Shown here piece by piece: positions 25,738 to 30,111 of a stretch of 30,869 bases of DNA. Position 1 is the first letter of the stretch, and each line of letters begins with the position of its first letter. The notes beneath the pieces are model-generated. The model was not told the DNA's origin, did not search any database, and saw only the letters and a list, made by a program, of their open reading frames with translations. The position numbers and the translations under genes were made by a program. The stretch is taken from positions 1 to 30,869 of the forward strand of contig DASQJK010000176.1 of NCBI GenBank assembly GCA_035631095.1. The letters are read 5' to 3'. The DNA is from Thermoanaerobaculia bacterium. Lineage in GTDB: Bacteria; Acidobacteriota; Thermoanaerobaculia; UBA5066; Gp7-AA6.

Positions 25738-27012
25738 TTACAGGACCGGGCCGAGGCTTCGCGCCAGCGCGTCGCCCACCCTGTGCAGGAGGGGCCGCCG
25801 GGACCAGGCCTCTCGCGTCATTTCGACCGACTGGGCGAGATCGGTCTCGAATGCCCGGGCGAAGATCTGCCCGACCTCGCCGTCCAGAATCACGACGTTG
25901 CACTCCGCGTTGAAGTGGAAGGACCGGAAGTCGAGGTTGCTCGATCCCGTGAGGGACAGGAAGTCGTCCGCCACGGCGGTCTTGGCGTGCAAAACCGCCG
26001 TCTGGTACTCGAACACCCGCACGCCCCGCCGGAGAAGGCCCGCGTAGTGCCCGTGGCCGGCGTGCCGCACGATCGGAACGTCGCTTTTGCCGGGAAGAAG
26101 GATGCGGACGTCCACACCCCGTTCGGCCGCGAGCCCCAGGGCTTCGACCGCGCGACGCCGCGGCGCGAAGTACGCGTTGGTGATCCAGATTCGCTTCTTC
26201 GCCGCCGCGACCACCGCGGCGAACGCGGAAGCGATTTCCCCCGTTCCGCGGAACGGCCGGGAATCGAGGACCATCACCGATACCGGGCCGGTCTGAGGCT
26301 CCAGGGGTTCGAGGCCTATGGGAGAGCCTCCGGCGGCGTTCCATGCTTCGGTGAACACGATGGTCATTCCCCACGCCGCGGGCCCGTCGATCCTGACGTG
26401 CGTGTCCCGCCAGGGGCCGCCGTGCGCCGACGGCCCCGAGCCGTACTCGTCTCCGATGTTCATCCCTCCCGTGAAGGCGACCTCGTCGTCGATCACGAGG
26501 ATCTTCCGGTGGTCGCGGAACGGCTGCAGGAAGAGCTGGGGAAACAGCGGATTGAACAGTCGGACCTCGATCCCGCGTTCCCGCATCTCTTTCCAGAAAT
26601 CGCGGCGCGTCGCGATCGAACCGAAGGCGTCGGCGAGCACGCGAACGGATACCCCGCGGTCGACCGCCCGGCCGAGCGCCTCGAGCAGCGAACGTCCCGT
26701 GGCGTCGTCCTTGAAGATGTACGACTCGAGGAGCACCATGCGGCGCGCGTCGTCGATCGCCGCCCGCATCGCCTCGAAAGTCGCCGGCCCGTTGAAGAAC
26801 GCGGTGATCCGATTCCCCTCCAGCATCGGCGACTCGTCGATGCGCCGGAGCAGGATCGAGAACCCGGGGTCCCGAACGCCCTCCGCGAAACCGGCCGCGA
26901 GGCGGCCGACGTTCTGAACTCGCAATTCGGGAGGCAGCCTGCGGCCCGGCCGCGGCCTCAGCGTCGGCCGCCACAGCCTCCACTTCCGGCGTCTCCGGGA
27001 GCGGTCACGCAC
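25738..27012 (-). CDS. cls: Phospholipase D superfamily, cardiolipin synthase-like without N-terminal TM helices (ClsB-like; 424 aa; start uncertain)
   Basis: Two HKD motifs (HRKILVID..AFTGGMN; HAKTAVAD..GSSNLD.RS), WRDTH, ITNAYF.P. Confidence 0.88.
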   Translation of the reverse strand: MRDRSRRRRKWRLWRPTLRPRPGRRLPPELRVQNVGRLAAGFAEGVRDPGFSILLRRIDESPMLEGNRITAFFNGPATFEAMRAAIDDARRMVLLESYIFKDDATGRSLLEALGRAVDRGVSVRVLADAFGSIATRRDFWKEMRERGIEVRLFNPLFPQLFLQPFRDHRKILVIDDEVAFTGGMNIGDEYGSGPSAHGGPWRDTHVRIDGPAAWGMTIVFTEAWNAAGGSPIGLEPLEPQTGPVSVMVLDSRPFRGTGEIASAFAAVVAAAKKRIWITNAYFAPRRRAVEALGLAAERGVDVRILLPGKSDVPIVRHAGHGHYAGLLRRGVRVFEYQTAVLHAKTAVADDFLSLTGSSNLDFRSFHFNAECNVVILDGEVGQIFARAFETDLAQSVEMTREAWSRRPLLHRVGDALARSLGPVL

Positions 27013-27751
27013 TGCCCGCCTCCATCGCGCGCGCGCGGATGGCGCGCAGCCACATTCTCCGGATCAAGGCGCTGCCCGGATAGATGACCCGCCAGTAGGC
27101 CGCGAAGCGCCGCCGTCCCCGGGCGCCGTTCGCGAATACCCGTGTCTCGGTCGTCAGGATCGAGCCGCGATCCCCGTCGGGACGGACGAGAAAATTCATG
27201 GCCGCCAGTGTGAGCCCGGAAGGCGGGGCGAGAAAGAGCTCCGCCGCCGGTTTCGGTCGAGTTCCCGCGGGGGCGGCGATCACGGTGCCGACGACCAGCT
27301 CGCGCGGAGAGTCGTCGGCGAGAAGGACGAACGTGCTGTGGATCGCGACGTCGATGAGGGACTCGCGTCCTGCGGCGTCGAGAATGCCGGGCGCCCGGCT
27401 TCGCCCTCCGCGCCGGATCCAGGTCAGGGTGCGGAAGAGAAATATCTCGTCGGCGCGCACGCGGCGAATCGCCTCGAAGACCCGCTCGGGAGGCGCCGCA
27501 ATCCGGATCTCGTGCCGCTCCTGGAACTGCCAGACAGGCACGAAGCGGTCCAGGCGCGACTCGGCCGCGGAAACCCGTGTTTCCCGGGCGGGAAGAGAGG
27601 CGCCCGCGGCGGCGAGCAGGACCCCAACGGCGACGACGACCCCCGCCCCGCGTCTGGTCGAGATCCCGAGACTTCTCGCGGGCCGGATGAGGAGCACGAC
27701 GCCGATGGCGGCGGTGAGCAGTCCCGCGTAAACGACCGCGGCCCCCCTCAT
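27005..27751 (-). CDS. Hypothetical membrane-anchored protein (248 aa); soluble part possibly START/DUF2867-like
   Basis: GGAGG 5 nt before ATG 27751; two N-terminal hydrophobic segments, then LDRFVP.WQFQERHEI.I.APPERVF...TETRV...F..YW.VI.PGS. The fold is a guess. Confidence 0.75.
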   Translation of the reverse strand: MRGAAVVYAGLLTAAIGVVLLIRPARSLGISTRRGAGVVVAVGVLLAAAGASLPARETRVSAAESRLDRFVPVWQFQERHEIRIAAPPERVFEAIRRVRADEIFLFRTLTWIRRGGRSRAPGILDAAGRESLIDVAIHSTFVLLADDSPRELVVGTVIAAPAGTRPKPAAELFLAPPSGLTLAAMNFLVRPDGDRGSILTTETRVFANGARGRRRFAAYWRVIYPGSALIRRMWLRAIRARAMEAGSA

Positions 27752-27864
27752 CGAGCCCTCCCGCGTCGGAGACGTTTCCATCACTGTACATCGCGCGCCA
27801 TCCTCCGAAGTGGACTGGCCCCGCGCCGCGAGTGGACCTGGTTCTACCCGCAATAATCCCGGGA

Positions 27865-28581
27865 ATGAAGCTCCTCGGGATCATCGGCGGCATCGCGCCC
27901 GAATCGACCATCGAGTACTACCGCCTGATCATCGCCGCCTGGCGCCGCCGGCGGCCGGGCGAGGGTTACCCGGCTCTGCTGATCAACAGCATCGACGTCG
28001 AGCGCCTGCTCGCTTTGACCGGCGCCGGCGAGCTCGCCGCGCTGACTGCGTGGCTCGCCGAGGAGCTCGCTCGGCTCGAGCGAGCGGGCGCGCGCCTCGC
28101 TCTTCTCGCCGCCAATACTCCGCACATCGTCTTCGACGAGCTGCAGAGCCGATCGCCGATGCGGCTGATCAGCATCGTCGAAGCGGCAGCGGACTACGCC
28201 GCGGCGCAAGGGATGAGGAAGGTCGGACTCTTCGGAACGCGCTTCACGATGCGGGGCGGGTTCTACGAGCCGGCCTTTGCGCGAGCCGGGATCGAGATCG
28301 TCGTGCCCCGGGAGGAGGACGCCGATTTCATCCACGCAAAGTACGTCGGAGAGCTGATCCACGGCGTCTTCCGCGCCGAGACGCGGGAGGCCCTGCTCGC
28401 GATCATCGAGCGCATGCGGACCGGGTCGGCCATCGATGGAGTGGTCCTCGGCGGCACCGAGCTGCCGCTCGTTCTCCGAGGAGCCGAAAGCCCCGTTCCT
28501 CTCCTCGACACCGCTCGAATCCACGCCGAGCGGGCGGTCGACGAGATGCTCGGAGACGACCCGGAGGATGCCGGGAGCTAG
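27865..28581 (+). CDS. Aspartate/glutamate racemase family protein lacking both catalytic cysteines (238 aa)
   Basis: GIIGGIAPESTIEYY, AANTPH, GLFGTRFTM, LGGTELPL, DTARIH; no Cys in the translation. Confidence 0.9.
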   Translation: MKLLGIIGGIAPESTIEYYRLIIAAWRRRRPGEGYPALLINSIDVERLLALTGAGELAALTAWLAEELARLERAGARLALLAANTPHIVFDELQSRSPMRLISIVEAAADYAAAQGMRKVGLFGTRFTMRGGFYEPAFARAGIEIVVPREEDADFIHAKYVGELIHGVFRAETREALLAIIERMRTGSAIDGVVLGGTELPLVLRGAESPVPLLDTARIHAERAVDEMLGDDPEDAGS

Positions 28582-29096
28582 TCCGCGTGCCCCGCGAGCG
28601 TGTTCTCGTCCGCGCTCCTCCCGTAAACGGCCGGCACGGGGACGTCCAGGAGACGCAGGTACACCGTCAGCTGCCCACGATGGTGGTACCAGTGGTTCAG
28701 GAGCATCGTACGCAGGACCTGCAGACGGGGCATCGCGAAGACCTCACGCTCGCCGAAGCTCATCTTCCATGGCTGCTTCGCGGAGTCCTCGTCGAGCCTC
28801 GAGAGGATCTCGCGCGACTCGGCGAGGCTCGCATCGAGCGTCGCCGCGAAGTCCGTCTGTGCATCGGGCTGAGGAGGCTGACCGCTCGACTGAGACGCGT
28901 CGAAGCCGTCGCCCTGCGCGAGGCGGGAGATGTTGCCCGGGATACGCGCAACGTGGTTCGCGAGCTGCCCGAGGCTCATCGACTTGGAATGCGGCCTCCA
29001 TTCCAGCTTTTCGGCGGGAACACGCTCGAGGACCTTCCTGGTGGCGGGCGCCTCGCGATCGAGCTCGGCGAGAAGAGCGGCGGCGGGATTCGGCAT
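28578..29096 (-). CDS. DinB family protein (172 aa)
   Basis: WRPHSKSMSLGQLANHVA, NHWYHHRGQLTVYLRLLDVPVPAVYG.SADE; AAAGGAG SD. Confidence 0.9.
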   Translation of the reverse strand: MPNPAAALLAELDREAPATRKVLERVPAEKLEWRPHSKSMSLGQLANHVARIPGNISRLAQGDGFDASQSSGQPPQPDAQTDFAATLDASLAESREILSRLDEDSAKQPWKMSFGEREVFAMPRLQVLRTMLLNHWYHHRGQLTVYLRLLDVPVPAVYGRSADENTLAGHAD

Positions 29097-29119
29097 GACG
29101 GTCTCCTTTCGTTGCGGCG

Positions 29120-29164
29120 ACCCTATCGCTGTCACTTGCATTTTGCAAGTCACACGATTAACCT
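29120..29164. promoter_or_regulatory. Overlapping divergent sigma70 promoters built on one palindrome (candidate HxlR operator 29131-29153)
   Basis: ACTTGCA-TTT-TGCAAGT. Plus strand: TTGCAT(29136-41)-N17-TAACCT(29159-64)-N6-GTG. Minus strand: TTGCAA(29148-43)-N17-TAGGGT(29125-20). Confidence 0.75.
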
Positions 29165-29170
29165 CTTCCT

Positions 29171-29551
29171 GTGACTGCCTCCGCGCGCCTCCTGCCCCTC
29201 TCGGAACGGTCGAAGTGCCCGATCGCGAACGCGCTCGACGTCGTCGGTGATCGATGGACTCTCCTCGTCGTCCGCGACCTCCTTTTCTTCGGGAAGGTCC
29301 GCTACAAGGAGCTCGCGGCGTCGACGGAGCGGATCCCGACGAACCTGCTCGCCGACCGCCTCCGCCGGCTGGAGGCCGCAGGCATCGTCGAGAAGAAGGC
29401 GTACCAGAAACGGCCGGTTCGTTACGAGTACCGGTTGACCCCGCGTGGAAGCGACTTGCTGCCGCTGATGCGCGAAATGGTCACCTGGGCCAACCTGCAC
29501 ATCGCCGGCACGGCCCGGCCGCCCGCACGCTTTTACGAGGTCGGACGCTAG
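29171..29551 (+). CDS. HxlR-family winged-helix transcriptional regulator (126 aa)
   Basis: CPIANALDVVGDRWTLLVVRDL, LADRLRRLE..GIV, YEYRLTPRG.DL; N-terminal Cys as in redox-sensing members. Confidence 0.93.
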   Translation: MTASARLLPLSERSKCPIANALDVVGDRWTLLVVRDLLFFGKVRYKELAASTERIPTNLLADRLRRLEAAGIVEKKAYQKRPVRYEYRLTPRGSDLLPLMREMVTWANLHIAGTARPPARFYEVGR

Positions 29552-29559
29552 TCCGCCAC

Positions 29560-30111
29560 GTGCACTTCCGCCGGTCGATCCGAGGCGCCGACCGCCCTCG
29601 CCGGGCCGACGCCGACGGTCATCCACTCTGCCGCGAATGCGGCGGCGCCGTACGCCGTCCCCGCAGGACCTTCTGCTCGGAAGAGTGCGTCGATTCGCTG
29701 CGGGTGCGAACGTCTCCGAGCGCCGCGAGGGAGCGCGTCTTCGAGCGCGATCGCGGACGGTGCGCCGGGTGCGGGCGGGACACCGAGGACCTGCTCCGCC
29801 GCCTTCGCAACCTGCGGCGGCGCCGGCCACGGCCCGAGGTGATCGAGGAGGCGCGCGCGCTCGCTCTCGGGTTCGAGAGCGCCGTCGAGGTCTGCGGTGG
29901 GCGGACCGTCCTCCGGATCCGCAGAACGCTCTGGCAGGCGGACCACATCGTCCCGGTCGCGGAAGGCGGCGGAGGCTGCGGCCTCGAGAATCTGCGGACC
30001 CTCTGCCTTCCCTGCCACCGCATGGCGACGGCCGAGCTCGCGAGGCGCCTGACGCGGCTGCGCGGCGCCGCGCGCAACGAGGCGGTGGAGCTCTTCATCC
30101 GCGAGGACTGA
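29560..30111 (+). CDS. HNH endonuclease with Cys-rich N-terminal zinc-binding segments (about 183 aa)
   Basis: PLCREC, FCSEEC, RERVFERDRGRCAGC, WQADHIVPVAEGGG..GLENLRTLCLPCH. The GTG 29560 start is inferred as the first start codon after the HxlR stop. Confidence 0.88.
   Translation: MHFRRSIRGADRPRRADADGHPLCRECGGAVRRPRRTFCSEECVDSLRVRTSPSAARERVFERDRGRCAGCGRDTEDLLRRLRNLRRRRPRPEVIEEARALALGFESAVEVCGGRTVLRIRRTLWQADHIVPVAEGGGGCGLENLRTLCLPCHRMATAELARRLTRLRGAARNEAVELFIRED

What the first reader, a model, noticed from the sequence alone, without database searches (positions are those of the whole stretch)
27865..28581. Asp/Glu racemase homologue with neither catalytic cysteine and no Cys anywhere
Seen in the DNA: ctc gcc gcc aat act ccg cac (LAANTPH) and ctc ggc ggc acc gag ctg (LGGTEL). 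Established: PLP-independent Asp/Glu racemases use two Cys (PCNT/GCTE); E. coli YgeA has Thr plus Cys; arylmalonate decarboxylase has Gly plus Cys. Here the two positions are Ala and Gly, while the substrate-binding residues (NT, GT, TE) are kept and the ORF is intact. Inference: a ligand-binding pseudoenzyme, or a member with different chemistry, that automatic pipelines would mislabel as a racemase.
Basis: partly seen in the sequence, partly recalled or inferred. Interest (0 to 1): 0.62.

Follow-up and report, generated by a model that had tools for sequence, protein, structure and literature searches.

The report
Cysteine-free racemase homologue with conserved tyrosine swap
This intact soil-bacterial gene belongs to a large, strongly conserved and uncharacterised branch of the cofactor-free amino-acid racemase family in which the essential catalytic cysteine is always glycine and a nearby isoleucine is always tyrosine, so it is either a thiol-free enzyme of a new type or a binding protein that databases call a racemase.

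Summary
Window 27865-28581 (+) encodes an intact 238-aa protein with no Cys. It passes PF01177 and TIGR00035, and has Ala83 (AANTPH) and Gly197 (LGGTEL) at the two catalytic positions.

It is not decay or an assembly error.
- Of 345 scorable relatives, 285 have Gly197, and all 285 also have Tyr160. In Cys197 relatives this position is Ile or Leu.
- His157 (278/285) and Val/Ile/Leu165 (277/285) travel with the pair. Gly197 never occurs without Tyr160.
- All 81 checked loci, 80 species genomes from at least eight phyla plus the window, carry [Ser/Ala]83-Tyr160-Gly197.
- All four Gly codons are used, and dN/dS is 0.04-0.30.

Ala at site 1 is not unusual: the active RacX of Halocola is Ala79/Cys193, and PDB 2ZSK has Ala/Cys.

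The AlphaFold model (pLDDT 96) superposes on ligand-bound E. coli EcL-DER (TM 0.9). The substrate-binding residues are kept.

My best reading (about 0.45) is an active enzyme in which Tyr160, perhaps with His157, replaces the thiol. The rivals are other one-base chemistry and a ligand-binding pseudoenzyme.

I could not obtain model coordinates, so the Tyr160 to active-site distance is unmeasured. No conserved operon partner and no paper on this clade were found.

The parts
27865..28581 (+). Complete CDS of the Cys-free Asp/Glu-racemase-fold protein (238 aa plus stop). ATG 27865 is the true start, because homologues begin MKxLGIIGG.
28105..28125 (+). Motif LAANTPH (residues 81-87). Site 1 is Ala83 (gcc, 28111-28113). 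Asn84 and Thr85 are substrate-binding residues.
   Evidence: RacX mutagenesis of N80/T81 in PMC12838360
28333..28359 (+). Clade-signature segment IHAKYVGELI at the end of helix 150-162 and the following kink. It holds His157 (cac, 28333-28335), Tyr160 (tac, 28342-28344), Glu163 and Ile165 (atc, 28357-28359). Tyr160 is invariant in all 285 Gly197 proteins. Cys197 relatives have Ile/Leu at this position.
28447..28464 (+). Motif LGGTEL (residues 195-200). Site 2 is Gly197 (ggc, 28453-28455) in place of the catalytic Cys. Thr198 and Glu199 are retained.
28237..28251 (+). GTRFT segment (Gly124, Thr125, Thr128), part of the retained substrate-binding site. It is equivalent to Asn121/Thr124 of RacX.

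Best explanation
The gene encodes a functional, stand-alone member of a large uncharacterised clade within the YgeA/RacX/aspartate-racemase subfamily (TIGR00035). The clade signature is Asn41, Ser/Ala83, His157, Tyr160, Val/Ile/Leu165 and Gly197. I propose that it is still an enzyme that binds an alpha-amino-acid-like substrate in the usual cleft and moves a proton at C-alpha (racemisation or epimerisation). In this reading the phenol of Tyr160, probably tuned by His157 one helical turn away, reaches from the neighbouring helix into the space opened by Cys197-to-Gly and acts as the acid/base in place of the thiol. The opposite face would be served by water next to the small Ser/Ala83, as in the one-cysteine racemases.

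Shown here: the signature, its conservation, the fold, and the retained binding residues.

Inferred, not shown: that Tyr160 lies at the active site, that it is catalytic, and what the substrate is.
For: Family and fold:
- PF01177 and TIGR00035 both score above their cut-offs.
- The AlphaFold model has pLDDT 96 and pTM 0.91.
- The model superposes on ligand-bound EcL-DER 5HRA/5ELM with TM 0.90-0.91 and rmsd 1.6-1.7 A.

Coupled signature:
- Of 345 scorable proteins, 285 have Tyr160 with Gly197, 55 have a non-Tyr residue with Cys197, 3 have Tyr160 with Cys197, and none has Gly197 without Tyr160.
- Tyr160 is the only clade-specific invariant column besides Gly197.
- His157 is present in 278/285 of the clade against 17/58 of the Cys group. 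Position 165 is hydrophobic in 277/285, against Glu in 33/58.

Selection on these exact residues:
- All 81 checked loci (80 species genomes plus the window) carry the signature.
- Gly197 is encoded by GGC 29, GGG 27, GGA 23 and GGT 2. Tyr160 is encoded by TAC 58 and TAT 23.
- Pairwise dN/dS is 0.04-0.30, including pairs with unsaturated dS of 0.3-0.6.
- A merely dead site would be expected to drift among small residues. It does not.

Retained binding site:
- Gly8, Gly9, Pro12, Thr15, Tyr18, Tyr19, Ser42, Asn84, Thr85, His87, Thr125, Thr128, Glu163, Thr198, Glu199 and His220 are as conserved as in the Cys group.
- Asn84, Thr85 and Thr128 match residues validated by mutagenesis in RacX.

Site 1: Ala at this site is compatible with high activity, as in RacX Ala79/Cys193.

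Location of Tyr160 (indirect):
- Positions 156, 160 and 164 form the conserved hydrophobic stripe of helix 150-162.
- The equivalent segment lines the active site in relatives. OpaE loop B (Asn160-Met170, with Cys199) touches the substrate.
- AMDase pocket residues Val156 and Met159, with Cys188, map to positions 165 and 168 here.

Context: weak, lineage-specific links to amino-compound metabolism. These are a divergent MocR regulator in 5 loci of 3 phyla, and an EamA / Cys-Met PLP enzyme / GNAT / GNAT cluster in Verrucomicrobiota.
Against: - No coordinates could be obtained from the model, so the Tyr160 hydroxyl to C-alpha distance is unmeasured.
- By a simple beta-alpha-beta topology, the end of helix 150-162 could lie several angstroms from the catalytic centre.
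- I know of no cofactor-independent racemase in this superfamily that uses Tyr. A phenol is a poor base for an unactivated amino-acid C-alpha proton.
- The Tyr160/Gly197 pairing arose essentially once. Only 2 well-supported independent contrasts exist and the pair test is underpowered. The coupling could therefore be shared ancestry plus structural packing.
- A small lineage has both Tyr160 and Cys197 (P0179, P0271, P0272). Tyr therefore does not simply occupy the thiol's place.
- No conserved operon partner or fusion points to a substrate.
- No activity data exist for any member.
Confidence: 0.45

Rival explanations
1. It is an enzyme with a different reaction that needs one or no enzyme acid/base. 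One option is an AMDase-like decarboxylative protonation, in which the Gly opens a pocket and a hydrophobic residue at 165 destabilises a leaving carboxylate. Other options are a beta-elimination (lyase) or a double-bond or tautomer isomerisation on an amino-acid-like carboxylate.
For: - The superfamily already contains non-racemase chemistry built on replacing one Cys with Gly. AMDase has Gly74/Cys188 and a hydrophobic pocket of Leu40, Val43, Tyr48, Val156 and Met159 (PMC4996985).
- By constant offset from the second catalytic position, AMDase Val156 corresponds to position 165. The clade has switched this position from Glu to Val/Ile/Leu in 277/285 members.
- Several active-site-region positions change together (41, 157, 160, 165, 197), which looks like a remodelled pocket rather than a single swap.
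- Strong purifying selection also fits this reading.
Against: - AMDase still needs Cys188 as proton donor, and here no Cys exists.
- Site 1 toggles between Ser and Ala (187/97), so it cannot be the obligatory donor in a mirror-image AMDase.
- The AMDase dioxyanion-hole motif Thr75-Ser76 is Asn84-Thr85 here, which is the amino-acid racemase form.
- The offset mapping assumes no indels and was not checked on structures.
- No neighbouring genes suggest malonate-type or sulfonium substrates.
Confidence: 0.2
2. It is a non-catalytic ligand-binding protein (pseudoenzyme). It would keep the amino-acid-binding cleft to sense, sequester or hand over a metabolite. Tyr160 and Gly197 would be a packing solution that fills the former catalytic cavity.
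For: - Both canonical catalytic residues are absent, and no Cys is conserved anywhere in the clade.
- C197S abolishes EcL-DER racemase activity, and C193S markedly reduces RacX activity (PMC12838360).
- The binding residues are retained under purifying selection.
- Position 160 lies on the buried face of its helix, so an Ile-to-Tyr change with a Cys-to-Gly change could be purely structural compensation.
Against: - Absolute invariance of Gly197 (285/285, four codons) and Tyr160 (285/285), plus near-invariant His157, is tighter than expected for a relaxed former active site.
- No conserved partner gene or fusion exists that a regulatory or binding protein would act on. The best neighbour cluster occurs in 9 of 81 loci, and fusions are singletons.
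- The patchy, accessory distribution across many phyla, with 10 of 15 genomes carrying it in the window's own genus, is typical of a metabolic enzyme.
Confidence: 0.25
3. It is recent decay, a sequencing or assembly error, or a pseudogene. GGC to TGC is a single base change.
For: One transversion separates the Gly197 codon GGC from Cys TGC. The window comes from a 69%-complete soil MAG.
Against: - The frame is intact.
- All 120 nearest protein clusters and all 81 checked loci (80 species genomes plus the window) have Gly197, encoded by four different codons.
- dN/dS is 0.04-0.30.
Confidence: 0.01

Closest known systems
E. coli YgeA / EcL-DER (PDB 5ELL, 5ELM, 5HQT, 5HRA), an L-Asp/Glu or homoserine racemase with Thr83/Cys197
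   Same: Same TIGR00035 subfamily, with 34% identity. The model superposes with TM 0.90-0.91 and shares the residue numbering at both catalytic positions. Both have a non-Cys residue at site 1, and both keep the NT / GT..T / TE binding motifs, His87, Glu163 and His220.
   Different: EcL-DER keeps Cys197, which is essential since C197S is inactive. It has Ile at the Tyr160 position and Asn at the His157 position. The NF007569 equivalog score is 133, against a cut-off of 417.
RacX of Halocola ammonii (Ala79/Cys193), a broad-spectrum PLP-independent racemase (PMC12838360)
   Same: Ala at site 1 with full bidirectional activity. The binding residues Asn80, Thr81 and Thr124, validated by mutagenesis, correspond to Asn84, Thr85 and Thr128 at a constant offset of 4.
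   Different: RacX depends on Cys193, since C193S is markedly impaired. The window protein has Gly there, plus the Tyr160/His157/hydrophobic-165 signature.
PH1733 of Pyrococcus horikoshii (PDB 2ZSK), the best sequence match among solved structures
   Same: E 6.9e-40, 37% identity, an identical AANTPH motif, and the same length and fold.
   Different: It has LGCTELP (Cys present) and Ile-Ile-Phe where the window has Lys-Tyr-Val. As far as the searched literature shows, its function is also uncharacterised.
Arylmalonate decarboxylase (AMDase, Gly74/Cys188)
   Same: Same superfamily. It is the precedent that swapping one catalytic Cys for Gly, together with a hydrophobic pocket, creates new chemistry. 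Its Val156 maps by offset to the clade's Val/Ile/Leu165.
   Different: The Gly is at the other catalytic site. AMDase still needs Cys188. Its dioxyanion-hole motif Thr75-Ser76 and the other search criteria are not matched. No significant sequence hit was found.
Two-thiol racemases of the superfamily (P. horikoshii AspR 1JFL, MurI, allantoin/hydantoin racemases, OpaE)
   Same: Pseudo-symmetric two-domain fold, with the active site in the cleft. The segment about 30-40 residues before the second catalytic position (OpaE loop B) lines the site.
   Different: Both thiols are absent here. Identity is 16-27%.

Membership tests
Asp/Glu/hydantoin racemase superfamily (PF01177) | Profile match above Pfam's gathering score over the whole domain | tested here: met
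   146.3 bits against a cut-off of 31, covering profile positions 1-211 of 211.
Asp/Glu/hydantoin racemase superfamily (PF01177) | Two pseudo-symmetric alpha/beta domains with the cleft between them | tested here: met
   AlphaFold model with pLDDT 96. Foldseek TM 0.90-0.91 to 5HRA, 5ELM and 3OJC, and 0.83 to 1JFL.
TIGR00035 amino acid racemase subfamily (AspR/YgeA/RacX) | Score above NCBIfam's curated cut-off | tested here: met
   166.8 bits against 93.1.
TIGR00035 amino acid racemase subfamily (AspR/YgeA/RacX) | Catalytic Cys in the C-terminal G-C-T-E motif | tested here: not met
   Gly197 (ggc) aligns with Cys197 of 5ELL and the Cys of 2ZSK and 3OJC. Gly is present in 285/285 clade members.
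TIGR00035 amino acid racemase subfamily (AspR/YgeA/RacX) | Retained substrate-binding residues (Asn-Thr after site 1, the Thr125/Thr128 region, Thr-Glu after site 2) | tested here: met
   Asn84, Thr85, Thr125, Thr128, Thr198 and Glu199 are present and are at least 90% conserved in the clade.
TIGR00035 amino acid racemase subfamily (AspR/YgeA/RacX) | Racemase activity | not testable with these tools
   No member of the Tyr160/Gly197 clade was found in the searched literature.
Canonical two-thiol racemases (AspR, MurI, hydantoin/allantoin racemase) | Cys at both catalytic positions | tested here: not met
   Ala83 and Gly197, with zero Cys in the protein. MurI models score 18-19 bits against cut-offs of 147-328.
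YgeA equivalog (NF007569) and cysteate racemase CuyB (NF052483) | Equivalog score above the cut-off | tested here: not met
   133.2 against 417, and 107.3 against 190.
Arylmalonate decarboxylase | Gly at site 1 with Cys at site 2 as proton donor, and the Thr75-Ser76 dioxyanion hole (criteria of PMC4996985, Table 4) | tested here: not met
   Site 1 is Ala, site 2 is Gly, there is no Cys, and Asn84-Thr85 stands in place of Thr-Ser.
Pseudoenzyme (fold kept, catalytic residues lost, no turnover) | Loss of the canonical catalytic residues | tested here: met
Pseudoenzyme (fold kept, catalytic residues lost, no turnover) | Absence of catalytic activity, and no replacement catalytic residue | tested here: inconclusive
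   Activity cannot be tested here. A candidate replacement exists: invariant Tyr160 with His157. Its position relative to the substrate was not measured.

The most novel reading that the evidence does not exclude
[quoted passage not shown] The catalytic acid/base would have migrated from the Cys197 loop to Tyr160 (with His157) on the adjacent helix. The result would be an oxidation-insensitive racemase that is widespread in aerobic soil bacteria of many phyla and so far hidden under the label 'aspartate racemase'.
Probability: 0.35. Interest if true: 0.78.

Novelty: new variant of a known kind. Interest (0 to 1): 0.6.

Why it matters
Cofactor-independent racemases of this fold are textbook two-base, mostly two-thiol enzymes. 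The known exceptions still keep one cysteine. A large clade under selection that has replaced that last cysteine with glycine, and always gained a tyrosine next to it, gives a clean and cheap experimental question: do Y160F, H157A and G197C variants change the protein's behaviour? The answer would show whether a phenol can do the thiol's job on an unactivated C-alpha proton, or whether the scaffold has moved to new chemistry or to pure binding.

The finding also has practical uses.
- It marks hundreds of database entries named 'aspartate racemase' or 'amino acid racemase' as unsupported.
- It supplies a simple sequence rule, IHxxY together with LGGTE, for separating them.
- If the proteins are active, thiol-free racemases would be attractive oxidation-resistant biocatalysts for making D-amino acids.

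Tried and rejected
Gene context came from the genome search and the search for related loci instead.
- **The search for related loci** with the 50-sequence clade alignment A2 found no conserved stretch. The closer alignment A3 worked. Its count of 532 relatives includes hits to the N-terminal pattern that Cys-type proteins share, so only the 80 returned loci are counted as verified clade members.
- **Model coordinates** are not exposed. The decisive Tyr160 to active-site distance could not be measured, and the topology and offset arguments are only substitutes.
- **Independent-contrast test** of the 160/197 coupling had only 2 well-supported pairs and is underpowered.
- **Conserved neighbourhood**: none was found. 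The top neighbour clusters are generic ABC ATPases, Ser/Thr kinases, SDRs, aldehyde dehydrogenases, MocR regulators and GNATs, each in 9 or fewer of 81 loci.
- **Fusions**: only singletons, namely SnoaL, ApbA and TIR.
- **Glu165 as a partner of Cys197**: considered as a Glu-Cys dyad and played down, because EcL-DER, 3OJC and 2ZSK have Cys or Ala at that position and EcL-DER is active.
- **Protein atlas** gave only generic racemase cluster names.
- **Earlier scan notes** found by sequence were unrelated.
- **Sequencing runs**: no RNA holder was listed. The best holder is a soil metagenome that may be the source sample.
- **Literature**: seven full-text searches found no description of Cys-less members. 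The phrase search for 'Asp Glu racemase' did not match the slash form, so it was repeated as 'Glu racemase'.
- **Unpublished genomes**: the same-genus tally and the motif checks of L004, L008 and L020 rest partly on G013, G003 and G030. No main conclusion depends on them.

Full report
**1. The observation**

The ORF at 27865-28581 (+) is intact and encodes 238 residues with no cysteine.
- The ATG at 27865 is the true start, since homologues begin MKxLGIIGG.
- It matches PF01177 over the whole profile (146 bits, E 1.5e-42).
- It passes the NCBIfam subfamily model TIGR00035 'amino acid racemase' (166.8 bits against 93.1).
- It fails the equivalogs for YgeA, CuyB and MurI.
- Residue-level HMMER alignments to solved structures put Ala83 (AANTPH) opposite Thr83 of EcL-DER and the Ala of 2ZSK. 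They put Gly197 (LGGTEL) opposite the catalytic Cys of 5ELL, 3OJC and 2ZSK.

**2. Not decay, but a large clade**
- All 120 nearest protein clusters (52-77% identical) have Gly at site 2. Site 1 is Ser in 90, Ala in 29 and Cys in 1.
- Among representatives of 50%-identity clusters, the Gly197 form fills the top of the list. Cys197 forms appear from about 45% identity downwards.
- A maximum-likelihood tree puts 46 of 47 Gly197 representatives on one side, with a core of 39 rows at SH-aLRT 98. Two Cys197 rows are nested inside, P0194 with Leu160 and P0198 with Ile160.
- In species-representative genomes, the 80 best loci come from Acidobacteriota (Pyrinomonadaceae, Terriglobales, Thermoanaerobaculia, Blastocatellia, Chloracidobacterium), Gemmatimonadota, Verrucomicrobiota, Chloroflexota, Beta-, Gamma- and 'Delta'-proteobacteria, NC10, Ignavibacteriae and Cytophagia. 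All of them are MAGs.
- All 81 loci, including the window, read [Ser 51 / Ala 30]83-Tyr160-Gly197.
- Gly197 is encoded by GGC 29, GGG 27, GGA 23 and GGT 2. Tyr160 is encoded by TAC 58 and TAT 23.
- Pairwise NG86 dN/dS is 0.04-0.30, including pairs with dS of 0.3-0.6.
- In the window's own genus, 10 of 15 genomes including G000 carry a Tyr/Gly-type copy. Part of this count rests on the unpublished genomes G013 and G003.

**3. What distinguishes the clade**

I compared 47 Gly197 representatives with 54 Cys197 representatives column by column. The only column that is invariant in one group and rare in the other, apart from 197 itself, is 160. It is Tyr in 47/47 of the Gly197 group, and Ile/Leu in 51/54 of the Cys197 group.

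| Residue 160 | Residue 197 | Proteins |
|---|---|---|
| Tyr | Gly | 285 |
| not Tyr | Cys | 55 |
| Tyr | Cys | 3 |
| not Tyr | Gly | 0 |
| not Tyr | Ala or Ser | 2 |

Other positions travel with the pair:

| Position | Tyr160/Gly197 clade (285) | Cys197 group (58) |
|---|---|---|
| 157 | His 278 | His 17 |
| 165 | Val/Ile/Leu 277 | Glu 33 |
| 41 | Asn 246 | Asn 10 |

Everything known or presumed to bind the substrate is equally conserved in both groups. This covers Gly8, Gly9, Pro12, Thr15, Tyr18, Tyr19, Ser42, Asn84, Thr85, His87, Thr125, Thr128, Glu163, Thr198, Glu199 and His220. No Cys column is conserved in the clade.

**4. Site 1 is not the oddity**

The Cys197 sister group also has Ala, Ser or Thr at site 1. 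PDB 2ZSK has AANTPH with GCTE. The RacX enzyme of Halocola ammonii has Ala79/Cys193 and is a fast bidirectional broad-spectrum racemase. Its Asn80, Thr81, Asn121 and Thr124 matter for activity, and C193S is markedly impaired (PMC12838360). At a constant offset of 4, these correspond to Asn84, Thr85, Thr125, Thr128 and Gly197 here. This whole subfamily therefore already works with a single enzyme base at site 2. What the clade has done is remove that last base.

**5. Structure**

With an 80-sequence alignment, AlphaFold2 gives pLDDT 96 and pTM 0.91. Foldseek places the model on 3OJC and on ligand-bound EcL-DER (5HRA, 5ELM) with TM 0.90-0.91 and rmsd 1.6-1.8 A. Tyr160 sits in the last turn of helix 150-162, just before a kink at Glu163.

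Positions 156, 160 and 164 form the conserved hydrophobic stripe of that helix. Residue 160 therefore faces inwards.

The tools do not return coordinates, so I could not measure how close the Tyr hydroxyl comes to the substrate. Two published landmarks suggest that the segment lines the active site.
- In OpaE (Cys90/Cys199), loop B (Asn160-Met170) shapes the site and contacts the substrate (PMC12661438). This is 29-39 residues before the second Cys, which corresponds to 158-168 here.
- In AMDase (Gly74/Cys188), the pocket residues Val156 and Met159 lie 32 and 29 residues before Cys188 (PMC4996985 Table 4). These correspond to 165 and 168 here.

These mappings assume no indels and are inference.

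**6. Mechanistic reading**

The tight, codon-independent invariance of Gly197 and Tyr160, the near-invariant His157 one turn away, and the fully preserved binding site together argue that the cleft is still used, and that Tyr160 does something specific there.

My best guess (0.45) is a relocated acid/base. The Tyr160 phenol, tuned by His157, would reach into the space freed by Cys-to-Gly and exchange the C-alpha proton. Water beside Ser/Ala83 would serve the other face.

The rivals are:
- A different one-base reaction on the same scaffold (0.2). AMDase is the precedent for a Gly substitution plus a hydrophobic pocket. The Glu-to-Val change at 165 points this way, but no proton-donating Cys exists and site 1 toggles between Ser and Ala.
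- A ligand-binding pseudoenzyme in which Tyr and Gly are a packing solution (0.25).
- Decay or error, which is excluded.

The rare Tyr160+Cys197 lineage (P0179, P0271, P0272) shows that the two side chains can coexist. It may be an intermediate or a revertant.

**7. Context**

In the window the gene is monocistronic.
- It diverges from an unannotated 282-aa ORF (27005-27853, -).
- It converges on a DinB-family gene (28578-29153, -).
- An HxlR regulator, a PLD-type cardiolipin synthase and an aldehyde dehydrogenase lie nearby.

Across 81 loci no neighbour is conserved. The most frequent cluster occurs in 9 loci.

Lineage-specific hints point to amino-compound metabolism.
- A divergent MocR (GntR-aminotransferase) regulator is present in five loci from three phyla.
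- In Verrucomicrobiota there is a MocR-controlled row of EamA exporter, Cys/Met PLP enzyme, GNAT, GNAT, this gene and, in one case, a further GNAT.

Fusions are singletons.

**8. Literature and novelty**

Seven full-text searches and five papers read gave nothing on members lacking both cysteines, and nothing on a Tyr at this position. The searchable library holds only open-licence papers, so this is absence of evidence. Sources annotate the clade as 'amino acid racemase' or 'aspartate racemase'.

I classify it as a new variant of a known kind. It is a well-delimited, widespread subfamily with a different catalytic signature inside a well-known fold. Its function is untested.

Noticed in passing
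L002:1453-2133 (G000 contig C26); relatives L014-L018, L020-L022: The same genome has a second PF01177 paralogue, about 32% identical. It has a conserved ICPDNTxH motif with Asp at catalytic site 1 and a Cys two residues earlier, and a normal LGCTEIP at site 2. The same motif pair occurs in 9 of 10 relatives checked across the genus, family and order. This is another non-canonical site-1 variant. L020 comes from the unpublished genome G030.
   Followed up: partly
P0179, P0271, P0272 (metagenomic proteins): A small lineage combines Tyr160 and a non-acidic residue at 165 with a retained Cys197 (IVGCTEFP). Its nearest relatives, at 45-48% identity, are Tyr/Gly-type. It is a possible evolutionary intermediate or revertant, and would be useful for ordering the substitutions.
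   Followed up: partly
L069, L090, L092 (Verrucomicrobiota MAGs), around the homologue: A gene row sits next to a divergent MocR-type regulator: EamA exporter, Cys/Met-metabolism PLP enzyme, GNAT, GNAT, the Tyr/Gly racemase homologue and, in L092, a third GNAT. A divergent MocR regulator is also present in L083 (Cytophagia) and L094 (Acidobacteriaceae).
   Followed up: partly
window 28162-28164 (codon 100, cgg): The window protein has Arg100 where 273 of 285 clade members and 54 of 58 Cys-type relatives have Pro (SPxPL). It is one base away from CCG.
   Followed up: no
window 28578-28581: The stop codons of the racemase homologue (+) and the convergent DinB-family gene (28578-29153, -) overlap in the palindrome CTAG, so there is no intergenic spacer or terminator between the two genes.
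   Followed up: no
position 109 of the protein (window 28189-28191): In 82 of 120 near homologues the only cysteine sits at position 109, in helix 104-114 (SIVEATC). The window protein has Ala there, and only 21 of 68 clade representatives have Cys. It is therefore not a conserved substitute thiol.
   Followed up: yes
The genome search relatives: G013 against G003, G006-G012: Within one genus the Tyr/Gly-type copies fall into two very different groups. One is 75% identical to the window protein (G013, and the public MAG locus L023). The other is 50-54% identical (seven full-length same-genus hits; an eighth, in G010, is a contig-end fragment covering residues 1-137 at 61%). This suggests xenologous replacement or two old lineages. 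G013 and G003 are unpublished genomes.
   Followed up: no
window 29254-30111 (+): A long ORF overlaps the HxlR regulator gene (29171-29551) in another frame and carries an HNH endonuclease match only in its C-terminal part (residues 213-260). The real HNH gene probably starts downstream of the HxlR stop.
   Followed up: no
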